Positions 1-39,552 of a stretch of DNA of 64,000 bases are shown here, in pieces. The translations under genes were made by a program, and so were the position numbers. Source of the stretch: a virus (taxonomy: Duplodnaviria; Caudoviricetes). The notes under the pieces were generated by a model. It did no database searches, was not told the origin of the DNA, and saw only the letters and a list, made by a program, of their open reading frames with translations. The stretch spans positions 96,001 through 160,000 of IMG/VR virus record IMGVR_UViG_3300021400_000034. One strand, 5' to 3'. How positions within the stretch are numbered: the first letter of the stretch is position 1; every line of letters starts with the position of its first letter.

Positions 1-126
1 CAGTCCGACAAGAACACTGTCTTCGGAAACAACTTGAAGCACAAGCGAGAAGGATTCGTTCTGCGTCTCCGCAAGGACTACAGCGTGTCATTCAAAGTCA
101 AGAACCCCAACTACTCTATCTAGAAC

Positions 127-22753: not shown

Positions 22754-23932
22754 ATGAGAATTGAGACTAAGTACATACAGTCAGACGCTCTGCGCTGCGG
22801 CATGGATCTCTGCAAGGAGATCAACAAGTTCGGCCATGAAGCTTACGTGGTCGGCGGCTGCGTCCGCGATCTCGTCCGCTGGGGCTTCGGTCAGACTGAC
22901 AAGCCCGAGATCCACGACGTGGACATCGCTACGAACATGCCAATCGATGCGCTGAAGAACTGCTTCCGCACGGAGAGCAACAACGGCGAAGCTCACGGCA
23001 CGATCCTCGTCTTCCACATCTACGGCTATCCGTTCGAAGTGACTCAGTTCCGCAAGGACGGCGCTTACAGCGACGGTCGTCATCCCGACACGGTAGACTT
23101 CACGAGAGACTTCAAGGAAGACGCTGCACGTCGAGACTTTACGATGAATGCTATCGGCATGGACGGTGACGGCAACCTGATCGATCCTTTCGACGGCATT
23201 CACGACATCGACGTCGGCATCGTTCGAGCTGTCGGCGACGCTGACGCACGCTTCAAGGAAGACTCCCTCCGCATCATTCGCGGCATCAGGTTCTCTGTCA
23301 ACTTCGGCTACGAGATCGAAGCTGAGACACAAGCTGCGATGAAGACGAACGCTGCTCTTCTGAACAGTCTCTCTAACGAGAGGGTCCGCAAAGAGATCGC
23401 TGCCGTCAAGAACAAGGACTGCGGCTTCCAGCTCTTCATGAACAAGCTCGGCAAGCTCGACGCGCTGGACAATCATCCTATGTTCGAGTGGATCGACTAC
23501 CACGCTCTTCACGTCGCTGCTCTGCGGTCTAGGGACTTCGGCAAGACTTCTGTCTTCGCTATGATGACTCTCTTCAGCCACCAGAGCGACAGACAAGCTG
23601 AGCTGTGCCTTCTCACGAGAGAAGAGAAGAAGCAAGTGAAGTGGTTCCAGAAGTTCTGGGCTAAGCGCGACGAGATGACGCTGCCTTGGGCAGAGCTCAT
23701 CGAGTTCGTCAAGGGCGACTGGAACACGTTCATCAGCATTCTCGACAATCGAGATCTTCCCGCTTGGGCGAACTACATCCCTCAGGCTATCGCTCTGAGC
23801 AAGATGGAGATCGATCAAGCGGCCATCAGCGGCAAGCTGATGGATGAAGGCTATGAGCCTGGTCCCGTCTTCGGCGACATGGTTCGAGCCGAGATCCAGA
23901 AGATCTACCAACAAGAAGTGGATAAGATGTAA
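22754..23932 (+). CDS. cca: class II tRNA nucleotidyltransferase (CCA-adding enzyme)
   Basis: VVGGCVRD, DVDIAT, EVTQFR, EDAARRDFTMNA, RFKEDSLRIIRGIRF and SNER motifs. Confidence 0.92.
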   Translation: MRIETKYIQSDALRCGMDLCKEINKFGHEAYVVGGCVRDLVRWGFGQTDKPEIHDVDIATNMPIDALKNCFRTESNNGEAHGTILVFHIYGYPFEVTQFRKDGAYSDGRHPDTVDFTRDFKEDAARRDFTMNAIGMDGDGNLIDPFDGIHDIDVGIVRAVGDADARFKEDSLRIIRGIRFSVNFGYEIEAETQAAMKTNAALLNSLSNERVRKEIAAVKNKDCGFQLFMNKLGKLDALDNHPMFEWIDYHALHVAALRSRDFGKTSVFAMMTLFSHQSDRQAELCLLTREEKKQVKWFQKFWAKRDEMTLPWAELIEFVKGDWNTFISILDNRDLPAWANYIPQAIALSKMEIDQAAISGKLMDEGYEPGPVFGDMVRAEIQKIYQQEVDKM

Positions 23933-37899: not shown

Positions 37900-37960
37900 T
37901 AGATCCTAACAGCAATTCAAAGCACATTCCTGTTAAGAATCGAAAGCTAAAATGGATCTA
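37900..37960 (+). ncRNA. ACAGCAA cassette 1 (Asn GTT anticodon arm cargo)
   Basis: TAGATCC-ta-ACAGCAA...ATTC-CTGTTAA-GAAT...GGATCTA. Confidence 0.75.
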
Positions 37961-38161: not shown

Positions 38162-38944
38162 ATGATTTGCGAAAATTGCGGAAAAGAACATGACGGTTCT
38201 TACGGAAGTGGAAGATTCTGCTCTAGAGATTGCAGATTTTCTTATATAGGTAAACAGACTAACAAGAATGGTAAACATACTGGTCATCCTAATTATAATA
38301 CTGGAAGGACTCATTTTACTGCTTCACCAGATGGATGGAAATGCAAATGGTGTGATTTAGTCTTTAGAACTAGACGTGAACGTTCAAAACATTCAAATGA
38401 AGTTCATATACGCGATAAAAAGCATCCTTGGAATTATGGACTAACCAAAGATACTTCTAAAAAGGTAAAAGAGAGTACAGAATTAGTTAGGGAACTATAC
38501 AAAGCTGGAAAAATTCGTAAACCTGACAAAAAATTAGTATGGACGGAAGAGAGAAGACAAAGACAATCTGATAAGAAAAAGAAGTTTTATTCTGAACATC
38601 CAGAAGCACATCCAAATCGAAAATTAGCTAATAATCGTTCTAAGATGAGTTATCCAGAAAAGATAGTTTACGATTGGCTTACTGAGAAAAACATATCTTT
38701 TGAACATAATAAGCTGATAAGAACTAAAACTATTACGAGATATGTAGATTTTTATCTAAAAGACAATAATCTTATAATAGAAGTTGATGGAGAATTTTGG
38801 CACAATAGAAAGATTGAAAAAGATAAAAAGAAAGATTTTGAAGCCGAAGAAGCCGGTTATACTACTCTCCGAATAAAAGCAAAAGAGAGGATAATAGACC
38901 GATTAAATGACTTCTTCAGCTATCATATAAAAACGCTGGAATAG
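38162..38944 (+). CDS. putative homing endonuclease, Zn fingers plus Vsr/DUF559-like nuclease domain
   Basis: CENC...FCSRDC, PWNYGLTK, SYPE and VDF...IIEVDGEFWH motifs; AT-rich. Confidence 0.8.
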   Translation: MICENCGKEHDGSYGSGRFCSRDCRFSYIGKQTNKNGKHTGHPNYNTGRTHFTASPDGWKCKWCDLVFRTRRERSKHSNEVHIRDKKHPWNYGLTKDTSKKVKESTELVRELYKAGKIRKPDKKLVWTEERRQRQSDKKKKFYSEHPEAHPNRKLANNRSKMSYPEKIVYDWLTEKNISFEHNKLIRTKTITRYVDFYLKDNNLIIEVDGEFWHNRKIEKDKKKDFEAEEAGYTTLRIKAKERIIDRLNDFFSYHIKTLE

Positions 38945-39007
38945 CTCAGCTGGTAGAGCAGGGCTTTCGTAAAGCTCAGGTCGGCAGTTCGAGCCTGTCT
39001 TCCAGCG
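38935..39007 (+). tRNA. tRNA-Thr(CGT)
   Basis: loop TTCGTAA; overlaps the endonuclease stop codon. Confidence 0.88.
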
Positions 39008-39019
39008 CTACTGAAATTA

Positions 39020-39142
39020 GAGATGGTAACAGCAATTCTCTTTAGGCTGGTAACCTCGTGGTCGCGGGTTCGAGTCCCGTCTGGTCAGTCTCCGGATTGA
39101 TCGGTAGCTCAGTTGGTAGAGCACGTACAAGAAATCCATCTC
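39020..39142 (+). ncRNA. ACAGCAA cassette 2 (circularly permuted tRNA-Thr(GGT))
   Basis: GAGATGG/CCATCTC stem; 3' half 39044-39088 precedes 5' half 39098-39125. Confidence 0.85.
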
Positions 39143-39148
39143 GTCTTT

Positions 39149-39222
39149 GGTGCCGTGGTGAAGTGGCCTAACACATCGGTCTGTCTAACCGACATACGCG
39201 AGTTCGAATCTCGCCGGCATCG
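39149..39222 (+). tRNA. tRNA-Asp(GTC)
   Basis: loop CTGTCTA. Confidence 0.88.
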
Positions 39223-39225
39223 CTA

Positions 39226-39552
39226 TGATCTGAAGGAGAGACTCTAGCAATAGTGGAGTCGCTATCCTTGCAAAGGCCGCTACATTGAGCGTTACTTCGC
39301 CGTCAATTGGATCCAATGGAAGGACGCTTACTGGTTGATCAGCAGAAGTCAATTCGACGTCAACATGATGTCACCGACGAAGGCTGTGATGGAGTCAGGG
39401 GAGAGCATAGGCATAAGCATCCTGGCCCGGCCGCTGGAATCTCGAATTCATTTCAACCATCGAACGAGTCCGATGGTTCTATCGCGAAAAATAACGGCAT
39501 AAGCGCGAGACAGGTAAAGTCTTCGGTCACAAGACTATAAATGACCGGCCGT
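39226..39552 (+). ncRNA. candidate ~330-nt structured RNA
   Basis: 3' pseudoknot AGTCTT/AAGACT plus CGGTCA/TGACCG; no credible ORF. Confidence 0.45.

What the first reader, a model, noticed from the sequence alone, without database searches (positions are those of the whole stretch)
39020..39142. Circularly permuted tRNA-Thr(GGT) that rejoins into a perfect anticodon stem
Seen: the 3' half (AGG-CTGGTAA-CCTCG, variable loop, GCGGG-TTCGAGT-CCCGT, CTGGTCA; 39044-39088) precedes the 5' half (TGATCGG-TA-GCTC-AGTTGGTA-GAGC-A-CG; 39098-39125). The acceptor ends are joined by a TCCG-capped hairpin. Joining 39125 to 39044 gives CGAGG-CTGGTAA-CCTCG, an exact 5-bp stem with a canonical 7-nt loop. No conventional Thr(GGT) gene is present in the island. 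Established: permuted tRNAs are known from some algae and archaea, where BHB motifs direct processing; no BHB is evident here. Inference: this may supply the missing isoacceptor by a different route.
Basis: partly seen in the sequence, partly recalled or inferred. Interest (0 to 1): 0.9.

Follow-up and report, generated by a model that had tools for sequence, protein, structure and literature searches.

The report
Phage Y RNA shaped like rotated tRNA
The "rotated" threonine tRNA is real and conserved, but it is most likely a tRNA-mimicking Y RNA that partners this rumen jumbo phage's Ro60-like ring protein, an RNA class already described as resembling circularly permuted tRNAs, and not a gene that matures into a working tRNA.

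Summary
Observation confirmed. At 39044-39125 a tRNA 3' half precedes its 5' half. The acceptor ends form a closed 10-bp hairpin with a UCCG loop. The in-silico rejoined sequence is called tRNA-Thr(GGT) by ARAGORN.

The interpretation, a permuted gene supplying a missing isoacceptor, is not supported. The element is one member of a large phage RNA family (68 unique copies parsed) with this plan:
- a terminal helix (here GAGATGG/CCATCTC);
- an ACAGCAA motif;
- a small hairpin with an anticodon-like 7-nt loop;
- a T arm, a closed acceptor stem and a D arm.

Stems and the 15:48 tertiary pair covary. The "anticodon" does not hold: 18 different triplets occur, and GAU and GUU are found in the two closest relatives.

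The RNA co-occurs with a Ro60-like protein (DUF2828 plus vWA). Its Foldseek top 13 hits are all Ro60. In 23 of 23 cases the gene is on the same strand, at a median of 603 nt. It is present in 10 of 10 near-complete genomes tested. This phage encodes it 70 kb away.

The Rfam YrlA model matches the tRNA-like core only (38 bits, below the gathering score of 69). The phage has no RtcB and no splicing endonuclease, there is no BHB, the Thr identity pairs are absent, and no junction contig was found.

The scan had already noted sister cassettes in this same genome with the same reading.

The parts
39020..39026 (+). 5' strand of the terminal 'handle' helix (GAGATGG)
   Evidence: Pairs with 39136-39142 in the MFE and centroid fold. 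L005 has GAGGTAG/CTATCTC, with one compensatory change and one wobble. Across the family, a leader and its own trailer form a helix of 7 or more in 94% of elements, against 8% for swapped pairs.
39027..39036 (+). Conserved single-stranded motif TA-ACAGCAA-T. Candidate Ro60-like binding site, at the place of the GNCGAA motif of YrlA.
   Evidence: ACAGCA is invariant in alignment A2, although it was part of the search pattern. The same motif plus helix lies just upstream of the phage's own Ro60-like gene (G000:62739-62791) and in at least 8 other cassettes of the island. Binding is inferred, not shown.
39044..39056 (+). Small hairpin AGG-CTGGTAA-CCT.
   Evidence: In the family the loop is 7 nt with U33 in 44/53, A37 in 41/53 and A38 in 47/53, while the middle triplet varies freely.
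39057..39058 (+). CG pairing in trans with CG 39124-39125. It stacks on the small hairpin to give a nicked 5-bp 'anticodon' stem.
   Evidence: The Rfam YrlA alignment pairs CGU 39057-59 with ACG 39123-25. A perfect nicked 5-bp stem plus 7-nt loop is found in 53/68 family members, with the nick at varying positions.
39059..39063 (+). Variable region TGGTC, ending in C48
   Evidence: Position 15:48 covaries across the family: G:C 38, A:T 22, G:T 0, A:C 3 (Fisher p = 4e-14, sequences not independent).
39064..39080 (+). T arm GCGGG-TTCGAGT-CCCGT
   Evidence: The T stem is paired in 68/68 elements at all five positions, with 5-6 pair types at three of them. RNAalifold finds compensatory changes.
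39081..39104 (+). Closed acceptor stem-loop: 10 bp capped by UCCG, no free 3' end, no CCA
   Evidence: In L004 the sequence is wholly different but forms a 9-bp stem with an AATT loop. Of 123 pattern matches in viral contigs, 69 have a closed stem of 6 bp or more, in a bimodal distribution, against about 0.3% expected by chance. Compensatory changes occur at all 8 pairs.
39105..39123 (+). U8-A9, D arm GCTC-AGTTGGTA-GAGC, and A26
   Evidence: G18-G19 and G15 are present. The D stem is invariant in the family, but it was part of the search pattern, so it says nothing either way.
39124..39125 (+). CG, the trans partner of 39057-39058
39126..39135 (+). A-rich single-stranded linker TACAAGAAAT, facing the ACAGCAA strand across an internal loop
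   Evidence: Unpaired in the fold. An A-rich linker sits at this place in nearly all family members.
39136..39142 (+). 3' strand of the terminal helix (CCATCTC)
39143..39148 (+). Short tail GTCTTT up to the 5' end of tRNA-Asp (39149). The 3' end is probably set by RNase P cutting of tRNA-Asp.
   Evidence: ATCTCGT(C) follows the helix in most cassettes of this phage. No promoter-like or terminator-like site lies next to the element. The processing step is inferred.

Best explanation
The element (about 39009/39020 to 39142/39148, + strand) is a YrlA-class, tRNA-like Y RNA of a rumen jumbo phage.

How it is made (inferred): it is transcribed with the tRNA island and released when the flanking tRNA-Thr(CGT) and tRNA-Asp are processed.

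Structure:
- Its two ends pair into a 7-bp helix.
- That helix, together with the adjacent single-stranded ACAGCAA motif, forms a 'handle'.
- The rest folds into an L-shaped tRNA mimic: T arm, closed acceptor stem, D arm, and a nicked anticodon-like arm made of 2 bp in trans and 3 bp in cis.

Function (inferred): the handle is most likely bound by the phage's own Ro60-like ring protein (DUF2828 plus vWA domain, G000:62822-64318, about 70 kb upstream, same strand). The tRNA-like module then serves as the effector or decoy end of the particle. It may recruit a tRNA-binding enzyme or nuclease, as Y RNAs tether Ro60 to PNPase.

Shown here: the architecture, its conservation and covariation, the Ro60-like fold of the protein, and genomic co-occurrence.
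Inferred: binding, processing and function.
For: 1. Rfam YrlA (RF02553) aligns to 39057-39125 over model positions 24-84, which is the tRNA-like core. Score 38.2 bits, E = 3e-6.
2. The same core occurs in Vibrio phage BONAISHI as a full-length YrlA match of 59 bits, next to an 'RNA binding protein' gene. It also occurs in mycobacteriophages Phabba and Myrna inside their tRNA islands, and in Enterococcus phage EA1 just upstream of a phrog_850 gene.
3. A pattern scan of viral contigs gave 68 unique elements with the same plan. T and acceptor stems covary. The tertiary pair 15:48 covaries, p = 4e-14. The terminal helix is specific to each element's own ends, 94% against 8% for swapped pairs.
4. 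Synteny: relatives L004 and L005 carry the element at the same place, between Thr(CGT) and Asp. L004's acceptor stem has a wholly different sequence, and the two relatives' loops differ from this one.
5. Partner protein: phrog_850 hits the phage's own genome at E = 2e-113. Pfam calls it DUF2828 plus DUF7788. The AF2 model has pLDDT 79. The 13 best Foldseek PDB hits are all Ro60/TROVE, full length, including Thermus phage phiLo Ro60. At E <= 1e-10 phrog_850 rings only in D. radiodurans and B. thetaiotaomicron, the same two control genomes that the TROVE model hits.
6. Linkage: 22 of 62 loci found by the RNA pattern alone hold the gene. In 23 of 23 element-gene pairs the two are on the same strand, at a median of 603 nt. 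In records where the gene was not in the fetched locus, 14 of 18 records have it elsewhere, and 10 of 10 among those at least 90% complete.
7. A 53-nt mini-cassette with the identical helix GAGATGG/CCATCTC and ACAGCAA lies in the 5' leader of the Ro60-like gene. At least a dozen cassettes with the same handle lie in the island.
8. [quoted passage not shown] Phage Ro60 binds phage-encoded Y-like RNAs (PMC12135203).
Against: - The Rfam score is below the curated gathering score (38.2 against 69), and only the tRNA-like core aligns.
- The handle motif is ACAGCAA, not the GNCGAA(N)G motif of described YrlA RNAs.
- The Pfam TROVE model does not hit the phage protein. Its Ro60 relationship rests on fold and on the phrog profile.
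- This copy lies about 70 kb from the Ro60-like gene. The published criterion for YrlA was within 4 kb.
- No binding, expression-boundary or modification data exist for this RNA.
- The conserved anticodon-loop-like features (U33, A37, A38) are not explained by a pure handle-plus-elbow model.
Confidence: 0.8

Rival explanations
1. A genuine circularly permuted tRNA gene. Leader and trailer are removed, G28 is ligated to A29 to give a circle, the acceptor hairpin is opened (RNase P / RNase Z), CCA is added, and the product decodes ACC/ACU as tRNA-Thr(GGU).
For: - The rejoined sequence is a formally complete cloverleaf and is called tRNA-Thr(ggt).
- The loop has U33 and A37.
- The genome lacks Thr(GGT).
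- The phage encodes an RNA-ligase-family protein (PF09414, G000:94807-96123) and a CCA-adding-type nucleotidyltransferase.
- M. smegmatis YrlA is cut by RNase P and receives CCA in published work (PMC4201824).
- The YrlA literature leaves such processing open as a possibility (10.1101/312249).
Against: - The triplet changes to GAU and GUU in the nearest relatives and to 18 different triplets in the family. A related rumen contig has the loop CCGATAA, which lacks U33.
- The acceptor stem starts U1-A72/G2-C71, against G1-C72/C2-G71 in both real Thr tRNAs of the phage.
- The acceptor is a 10-bp closed hairpin, so the discriminator and position -1 are paired.
- There is no BHB, no splicing endonuclease and no RtcB.
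- The nick position varies from 0 to 5 bp within the family.
- In L005 the element carries an HNH gene inserted in its T loop.
- The RNA family tracks a Ro60-like gene, not codon usage.
Confidence: 0.03
2. A dead relic: two fragments left over from a tandem tRNA duplication, or from rearrangement caused by the homing endonucleases that litter the island, with no function of its own.
For: - Homing-endonuclease genes flank the region (38162-38944 DUF559/Vsr-like; 39960-40589 phrog_314).
- YrlA RNAs are thought to descend from dimeric tRNA transcripts (10.1101/312249).
Against: - The halves complement each other exactly.
- The stems covary across 68 elements from many phage lineages. L004 keeps a 9-bp acceptor stem with an unrelated sequence.
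- The terminal helix and the ACAGCAA motif are maintained.
Confidence: 0.03
3. A tRNA mimic that acts without the Ro60-like protein. Examples: a decoy or sponge for host anticodon nucleases or tRNA-modifying enzymes, or a processing or stability element of the polycistronic tRNA transcript whose shared end-helix is an RNase recognition site.
For: - The anticodon-loop-like features are conserved (U33, A37, A38).
- It is embedded among tRNAs with no promoter or terminator of its own.
- This copy is far from the Ro60-like gene.
- Jumbo phages carry many counter-measures against tRNA-targeting defence (PMC7824862).
Against: - Same-strand linkage to the Ro60-like gene is strict (23 of 23), and the gene is present in 10 of 10 complete genomes tested.
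- The handle also sits in the leader of the Ro60-like gene itself.
- The two ideas are not exclusive. The Ro60 particle could be what displays the decoy.
Confidence: 0.1

Closest known systems
YrlA-type Y RNAs bound by Ro60/Rsr (Salmonella Typhimurium, Mycobacterium smegmatis, mycobacteriophages; Rfam RF02553; PMC4201824; structure 10.1101/312249)
   Same: - Same order of parts: 5' strand, small stem-loop, T arm, closed acceptor stem-loop, D arm, 3' strand.
- The ends pair into a stem with a conserved motif on the 5' strand.
- The T and D arm sequences are nearly the same, and the 15:48 Levitt pair covaries.
- A Ro60-type protein is encoded by the same genome.
- These RNAs are explicitly described as resembling circularly permuted tRNAs.
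   Different: - The handle motif is ACAGCAA (ACNGCAA in sister cassettes), not GNCGAA.
- The Rfam score is 38 bits, below the gathering score of 69.
- The small stem-loop keeps a 7-nt anticodon-like loop that stacks on the trans pairs. S. Typhimurium YrlA has no anticodon loop.
- This copy lies in a tRNA island 70 kb from the Ro60-like gene.
- The protein is of the DUF2828 type and is not hit by Pfam TROVE.
Thermus phage phiLo Ro60 with its Y-like RNAs Yrl1 and Yrl2 (PMC12135203; PDB 9KOP, 9L5Y)
   Same: - A phage-encoded Ro60 ring plus phage-encoded Y-like RNAs.
- The phiLo protein is the best structural match of this phage's protein.
   Different: - The phiLo RNAs are described as stem-bulge-stem RNAs with a CGAA motif, next to the gene. 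No tRNA-like domain is mentioned.
- In this phage there are a dozen or more cassettes, and most are far from the gene.
Circularly permuted tRNA genes of Cyanidioschyzon merolae, some green algae and Thermofilum pendens (Soma 2007; Maruyama 2010; Chan 2011, as cited in 10.1101/312249)
   Same: - The 3' half lies upstream of the 5' half.
- The acceptor ends are joined by a short linker.
- Leader and trailer pair next to the junction.
   Different: - Those precursors carry a BHB motif cut by the splicing endonuclease, are ligated to a circle, and keep a fixed anticodon and identity.
- Here there is no BHB, no endonuclease, no RtcB, no conserved anticodon, and the wrong identity pairs.
Permuted (two-piece) tmRNA genes of alpha-proteobacteria and some cyanobacteria (recalled from memory, not tested here)
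   Same: A bacterial tRNA-like domain encoded in permuted order.
   Different: tmRNA keeps a free CCA end and is charged with alanine. The two pieces stay unligated. No Ro60 is involved. Rfam tmRNA gives only an 18-nt T-arm match here (11 bits).

Membership tests
YrlA-type Y RNA (Rfam RF02553; Chen et al. 2014) | T arm, closed acceptor-like stem-loop and D arm, in that order, with tRNA-like conserved nucleotides | tested here: met
   cmscan aligns 39057-39125 to model positions 24-84. The fold agrees. The family parse agrees.
YrlA-type Y RNA (Rfam RF02553; Chen et al. 2014) | Tertiary tRNA contacts kept, notably compensatory G15:C48 or A15:U48 | tested here: met
   G:C 38, A:T 22, G:T 0, A:C 3 among 68 elements. 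This copy has G15 (39112) and C48 (39063).
YrlA-type Y RNA (Rfam RF02553; Chen et al. 2014) | 5' and 3' ends pair into a stem that carries the Ro60-binding motif GNCGAA(N0-1)G on the 5' strand | tested here: inconclusive
   The stem is present and covaries. The motif at that place is ACAGCAA, not GNCGAA.
YrlA-type Y RNA (Rfam RF02553; Chen et al. 2014) | Score at or above Rfam's gathering threshold (69 bits) | tested here: not met
   38.2 bits, core only. Phage copies next to Ro60-like genes also stay below it: BONAISHI 59.3, Phabba 40.1.
YrlA-type Y RNA (Rfam RF02553; Chen et al. 2014) | Encoded near (within 4 kb) and on the same strand as a Ro60 ortholog | tested here: inconclusive
   This copy is on the same strand but about 70 kb away. 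In the family, 23 of 23 are on the same strand at a median of 603 nt, and the gene is present in 10 of 10 near-complete genomes.
YrlA-type Y RNA (Rfam RF02553; Chen et al. 2014) | Physically bound by Ro60/Rsr | not testable with these tools
   Needs EMSA, co-immunoprecipitation or a structure.
Circularly permuted tRNA gene (algal/archaeal type) | 3' half upstream of 5' half, halves exactly complementary, acceptor ends linked | tested here: met
Circularly permuted tRNA gene (algal/archaeal type) | Bulge-helix-bulge motif formed by leader and trailer at the junction | tested here: not met
   The fold shows a 7-bp helix separated from the junction by a large internal loop. No 3-4-3 BHB can be drawn, because the trailer has no complement to AGGC.
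Circularly permuted tRNA gene (algal/archaeal type) | Splicing endonuclease and RtcB-type ligase available | tested here: not met
   No PF01974 and no PF01139 in the complete phage genome. The host is unknown. An RNA ligase of another family (PF09414) is present.
Circularly permuted tRNA gene (algal/archaeal type) | Anticodon and aminoacylation identity conserved among orthologues | tested here: not met
   GGU here, GAU in L004, GUU in L005, and 18 triplets in the family. The pairs are U1-A72/G2-C71 instead of the G1-C72/C2-G71 of the phage's Thr tRNAs.
Circularly permuted tRNA gene (algal/archaeal type) | Junction-spanning or circular RNA detectable | tested here: inconclusive
   Only assembled contigs of four rumen RNA runs could be laid. 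None joins 39125 to 39044. Contigs cannot exclude a rare form.
Ro60 / TROVE-vWA ring proteins (the presumed partner, G000:62822-64318) | HEAT-repeat ring followed by a vWA domain, full-length fold match to solved Ro60 | tested here: met
   The AF2 model has pLDDT 79.3 and pTM 0.78. Foldseek ranks 1-13 are all Ro60/TROVE, with 517-589 aligned columns and TM 0.32-0.57.
Ro60 / TROVE-vWA ring proteins (the presumed partner, G000:62822-64318) | Match to Pfam TROVE (PF05731) | tested here: not met
   No TROVE hit in the genome. Pfam gives DUF2828 plus DUF7788. There is no sequence-level PDB hit.

The most novel reading that the evidence does not exclude
Because this phage subfamily keeps a complete, coaxially stacked anticodon arm (U33, A37, A38) that other YrlA RNAs lack, some copies might be opened at the acceptor hairpin, sealed at the nick by the phage's own RNA ligase and given CCA by the phage nucleotidyltransferase. 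That would yield a circular or mature tRNA: a bacterial-virus route to permuted-tRNA maturation without BHB or splicing endonuclease. A milder form is that the Ro60-like particle displays full tRNA look-alikes as decoys for host anticodon nucleases.
Probability: 0.04. Interest if true: 0.9.

Novelty: new variant of a known kind. Interest (0 to 1): 0.35.

Why it matters
As proposed, a bacteriophage permuted tRNA matured by a new route, it would have been remarkable, but the evidence points elsewhere.

What remains is still useful in four ways:
- It adds an unannotated subfamily of phage Y-like RNAs. These have an ACAGCAA handle, a full tRNA mimic including an anticodon-like loop, and sit inside tRNA islands. 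Rfam's YrlA model misses them at its threshold.
- It ties that subfamily to the DUF2828/DUF7788 proteins, which this analysis shows to be Ro60-shaped.
- It gives annotators a rule for an otherwise puzzling 'half-tRNA' signal between phage tRNA genes.
- It offers a tractable system for asking what the tRNA-like end of Y RNAs recruits. This phage has one Ro60-like protein and a dozen cassettes with different tRNA-derived modules.

Tried and rejected
1. Junction reads. Assembled contigs of four bovine-rumen RNA runs were laid on 38850-39300. All 'go-back' joints from about 39122 to about 39060 carry 18-24 foreign letters between the two sides. They are ordinary tRNAs of other organisms matching the conserved D and T arms, not the rejoined element. 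No contig joins 39125 to 39044. One contig (X1 record 5) runs collinear over 39064-39214 without a difference. One (X2 record 13) is a relative covering 39017-39215. Contigs show neither ends nor absence, so this is no evidence either way.
2. An exact-pattern scan of viral contigs for this copy's acceptor hairpin found nothing. The hairpin sequence is lineage-specific.
3. The Pfam TROVE search of the genome was negative. This first suggested there was no Ro60. It was overturned by phrog_850 and by the fold search.
4. RtcB was suspected when phrog_850 rang in E. coli and archaea at a lax E-value. It was rejected: Pfam calls the protein DUF2828 plus vWA, there is no RtcB in the genome, and at E <= 1e-10 the controls are the two Ro60-bearing genomes.
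5. BLAST hits to Enterococcus phage Efs 1-1-1, Bacillus, Streptomyces, Erwinia and Salmonella records are simply two adjacent ordinary tRNA genes.
6. MAFFT and RNAalifold could not align the variable 3' linkers, so the terminal helix is absent from the consensus. It was tested by a swap control in a script instead.
7. No covariance model was built. Regex and parsing gave enough members.
8. A group I or group II intron explanation was considered. Only a 17-bit sub-threshold group II fragment hit appeared, and the flanks are too short.

Full report
**What is there.** The window is bases 96001-160000 of a complete 243,336-bp virus record with direct terminal repeats. RNA and DNA runs that hold the stretch are bovine gut or rumen samples. 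All 33 tRNA genes of the genome lie in one island at window 35.5-44.7 kb.

Between tRNA-Thr(CGT) (38935-39008) and tRNA-Asp (39149-39223) lies a 140-nt spacer.
- A29-G31, a 7-nt loop CTGGTAA, and C39-G43
- variable region TGGTC
- a canonical T arm
- an acceptor 3' strand
- then, after a short linker, an acceptor 5' strand, U8-A9, a canonical D arm, A26 and C27-G28

Rejoined in silico it is a 73-nt tRNA-Thr(ggt) for ARAGORN. Two details refine the picture. The acceptor strands and the 'linker' form one uninterrupted 10-bp hairpin with a UCCG tetraloop. The outer flanks GAGATGG (39020-26) and CCATCTC (39136-42) pair with each other.

**First clue.** Rfam gives one non-tRNA match. The YrlA (Y RNA-like) model aligns to 39057-39125 over model positions 24-84, at 38.2 bits and E = 3e-6, below the gathering score of 69. 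YrlA RNAs are the bacterial and phage partners of Ro60/Rsr. Their effector domain has a T arm, a closed acceptor stem and a D arm, with the RNA's own 5' and 3' ends entering through the anticodon-stem position (PMC4201824).

**Relatives.** BLAST against phage records finds the same permuted core in several places:
- unannotated DNA of Vibrio phage BONAISHI, a full-length YrlA match of 59 bits just upstream of an 'RNA binding protein' gene
- mycobacteriophages Phabba and Myrna, inside their tRNA islands
- Enterococcus phages, directly upstream of a phrog_850 'RNA-binding protein' gene
- cluster-L mycobacteriophages, directly downstream of such a gene

Some other hits were merely two adjacent normal tRNAs.

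Two close relatives of the present phage (73% identity on a neighbouring protein) keep the element at the syntenic place.
- L004 has the same handle. Its acceptor hairpin has a wholly different sequence (9 bp, AATT loop), and its loop is TTGATAA.
- L005 has GAGGTAG/CTATCTC, which is one compensatory change and one wobble. Its loop is CTGTTAA. An HNH-endonuclease ORF is inserted in its T loop.

**The family.** A degenerate pattern (ACAGCAR, T loop, D arm) pulled more than 120 stretches from viral contigs. Parsing gave 68 unique elements with one plan: helix strand, 0-2 nt, ACAGCAA, variable linker, small hairpin, variable region, T arm, closed acceptor stem of 7-12 bp, D arm, A-rich linker, complementary helix strand.

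Controls and covariation:
- Of 123 pattern matches, the closed-stem length is bimodal. 69 have 6 bp or more, where chance gives about 0.3%.
- The T stem is paired in 68 of 68 at all positions, with up to six pair types.
- RNAalifold on ten members finds compensatory changes at 12 of 17 pairs.
- The tertiary Levitt pair covaries: G15:C48 38, A15:U48 22, G15:U48 0.
- Each leader pairs with its own trailer (helix of 7 or more in 94%) but rarely with other elements' trailers (8%).

**The 'anticodon arm'.** In 53 of 68 members a perfect 5-bp stem with a 7-nt loop can be drawn from a few trans pairs plus a short cis hairpin. This count is somewhat inflated, because the best of several registers was taken. 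The nick sits at different depths, from 0 to 5 bp in cis. The loop keeps U33 (44/53), A37 (41/53) and A38 (47/53), so it is anticodon-loop-like as a family trait. The middle triplet takes 18 different values, and GGT occurs only here. This hairpin corresponds to the 'V' stem-loop of Chen et al., whose loop begins with YUAY (PMC4201824). A decoding tRNA would not change Thr to Ile to Asn between near relatives.

The rejoined acceptor stem begins U1-A72, G2-C71. Both real Thr tRNAs of the phage begin G1-C72, C2-G71 (alignments). Those are the ThrRS identity pairs known from E. coli (established knowledge).

**The partner.** Pfam TROVE finds nothing in the genome. phrog_850 finds a gene at G000:62765-64318 at E = 2e-113, and also finds one in L005's genome and in Phabba, Kikimora and EA1.
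- Pfam calls the protein DUF2828 plus DUF7788 (vWA-like).
- More than 7,000 homologues exist in metagenomes, nearly all unnamed.
- An AlphaFold model from a 32-sequence alignment (pLDDT 79, pTM 0.78) matches, over its full length, only Ro60/TROVE structures in the first 13 Foldseek ranks. These include Thermus phage phiLo Ro60, Xenopus and human Ro60 and Deinococcus Rsr.
- At E <= 1e-10 the phrog model rings in exactly the two control genomes that have TROVE proteins.

Linkage:
- 22 of 62 loci fetched by the RNA pattern alone contain the gene.
- All 23 element-gene pairs are co-oriented, at a median distance of 603 nt.
- Of 18 records where the locus lacked it, 14 have it elsewhere. That is 10 of 10 among records at least 90% complete.

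**In this phage.** The homologue alignment starts at residue 20 of the longest ORF, so the true start is probably 62822 (inferred). The 5' leader of the gene contains a 53-nt mini-cassette with the identical helix GAGATGG/CCATCTC and ACAGCAA.

The tRNA island holds many more cassettes with the same handle (GAGAT.../...ATCTC plus ACAGCAA, ACTGCAA or ACCGCAA) around different inserts:
- bare hairpins
- a T-arm fragment
- a normal-order tRNA-like body
- a second permuted tRNA mimic with a class-II D arm at 44496-44624

Earlier notes of this scan list 14 such cassettes and reached the same Ro60/Y-RNA reading for two of them. I found nine independently before reading those notes, and then confirmed four more of the listed ones.

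**Could it still be rejoined?** Against:
- The phage has no RtcB and no tRNA-splicing endonuclease.
- No BHB can be drawn.
- No promoter or terminator of its own is evident.
- No assembled RNA contig carries the 39125|39044 junction. Contigs cannot exclude it.

For: the phage does encode an RNA-ligase-family protein (PF09414 with a PHA02142 OB domain) and a CCA-adding-type nucleotidyltransferase. Published work shows RNase P cleavage and CCA addition on M. smegmatis YrlA. The rival is therefore not formally excluded. I put it at about 3-4%.

**Verdict.** The element is a YrlA-class tRNA-like Y RNA of a phage subfamily with an ACAGCAA handle, most likely the RNA partner of the phage's Ro60-like protein. 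Binding, processing and function are inferred. It is a variant of a known kind and of moderate interest.

Noticed in passing
window 37900-37960, 40939-41037, 41229-41300, 41726-41793, 41883-41938, 42113-42224, 42315-42437, 42702-42811, 43267-43348, 43431-43545, 44496-44624: Sister cassettes with the same end-helix (GAGAT.../...ATCTC) and an ACAGCAA, ACTGCAA or ACCGCAA motif, but different inserts. 44496-44624 is a second permuted tRNA mimic with a class-II (Leu/Tyr-like) D arm. 43431-43545 holds a normal-order tRNA-like body. 42702-42811 encloses ARAGORN's tRNA-Leu(gag).
   Followed up: partly
outside the window: G000:62739-62791, just upstream of the Ro60-like gene (G000:62822-64318): A 53-nt mini-cassette with exactly the same helix GAGATGG/CCATCTC and ACAGCAA as the finding sits in the 5' leader of the Ro60-like gene. 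It could be a short Y RNA (YrlB-like) or an autoregulatory binding site. The longest ORF probably starts 19 codons too early.
   Followed up: partly
L005:14965-15745: In a related 248-kb phage the orthologous element is interrupted inside its T loop by about 770 nt carrying a 235-aa ORF with an HNH motif. No Pfam family is hit, no Rfam intron match is found, and the 3' strand of the T stem is not recognisable after the insert. It is either a disrupted copy or an unusual intron.
   Followed up: partly
window 38162-38944 and 39960-40589: Two homing-endonuclease-type genes lie inside the tRNA island on either side of the element: a DUF559/Vsr-like protein, and a phrog_314 homing endonuclease.
   Followed up: partly
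window 1-123 (gene G000:94807-96123) and window 22841-23227: The phage encodes an RNA-ligase-family protein (PF09414 with a PHA02142 OB-fold domain) and a CCA-adding/poly(A)-polymerase-family nucleotidyltransferase. It has no RtcB and no Pfam TROVE hit.
   Followed up: partly
window 39671-39742: ARAGORN's tRNA-Ser(aga) has three non-standard pairs at each end of the acceptor stem in the Rfam alignment (39.6 bits). Its counterpart in L004 is called tRNA-??? with a 2-nt anticodon. It may be another tRNA-like oddity rather than a working tRNA.
   Followed up: no
L001:2960-3095 (Mycobacterium phage Phabba) and L006:362-433 (Myrna): The mycobacteriophage counterpart sits in the tRNA island about 37 kb from that phage's Ro60-like gene and has the loop CTGTCAA. 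In the Myrna record part of it is annotated as 'tRNA-Asp', probably a mis-call of the Y-like RNA.
   Followed up: partly
family-wide (loci L018-L137): The small hairpin's 7-nt loop keeps U33, A37 and A38 and often U36 (31/53). That resembles anticodon loops of tRNAs reading ANN codons, while the triplet is free. What selects for this is unexplained.
   Followed up: no
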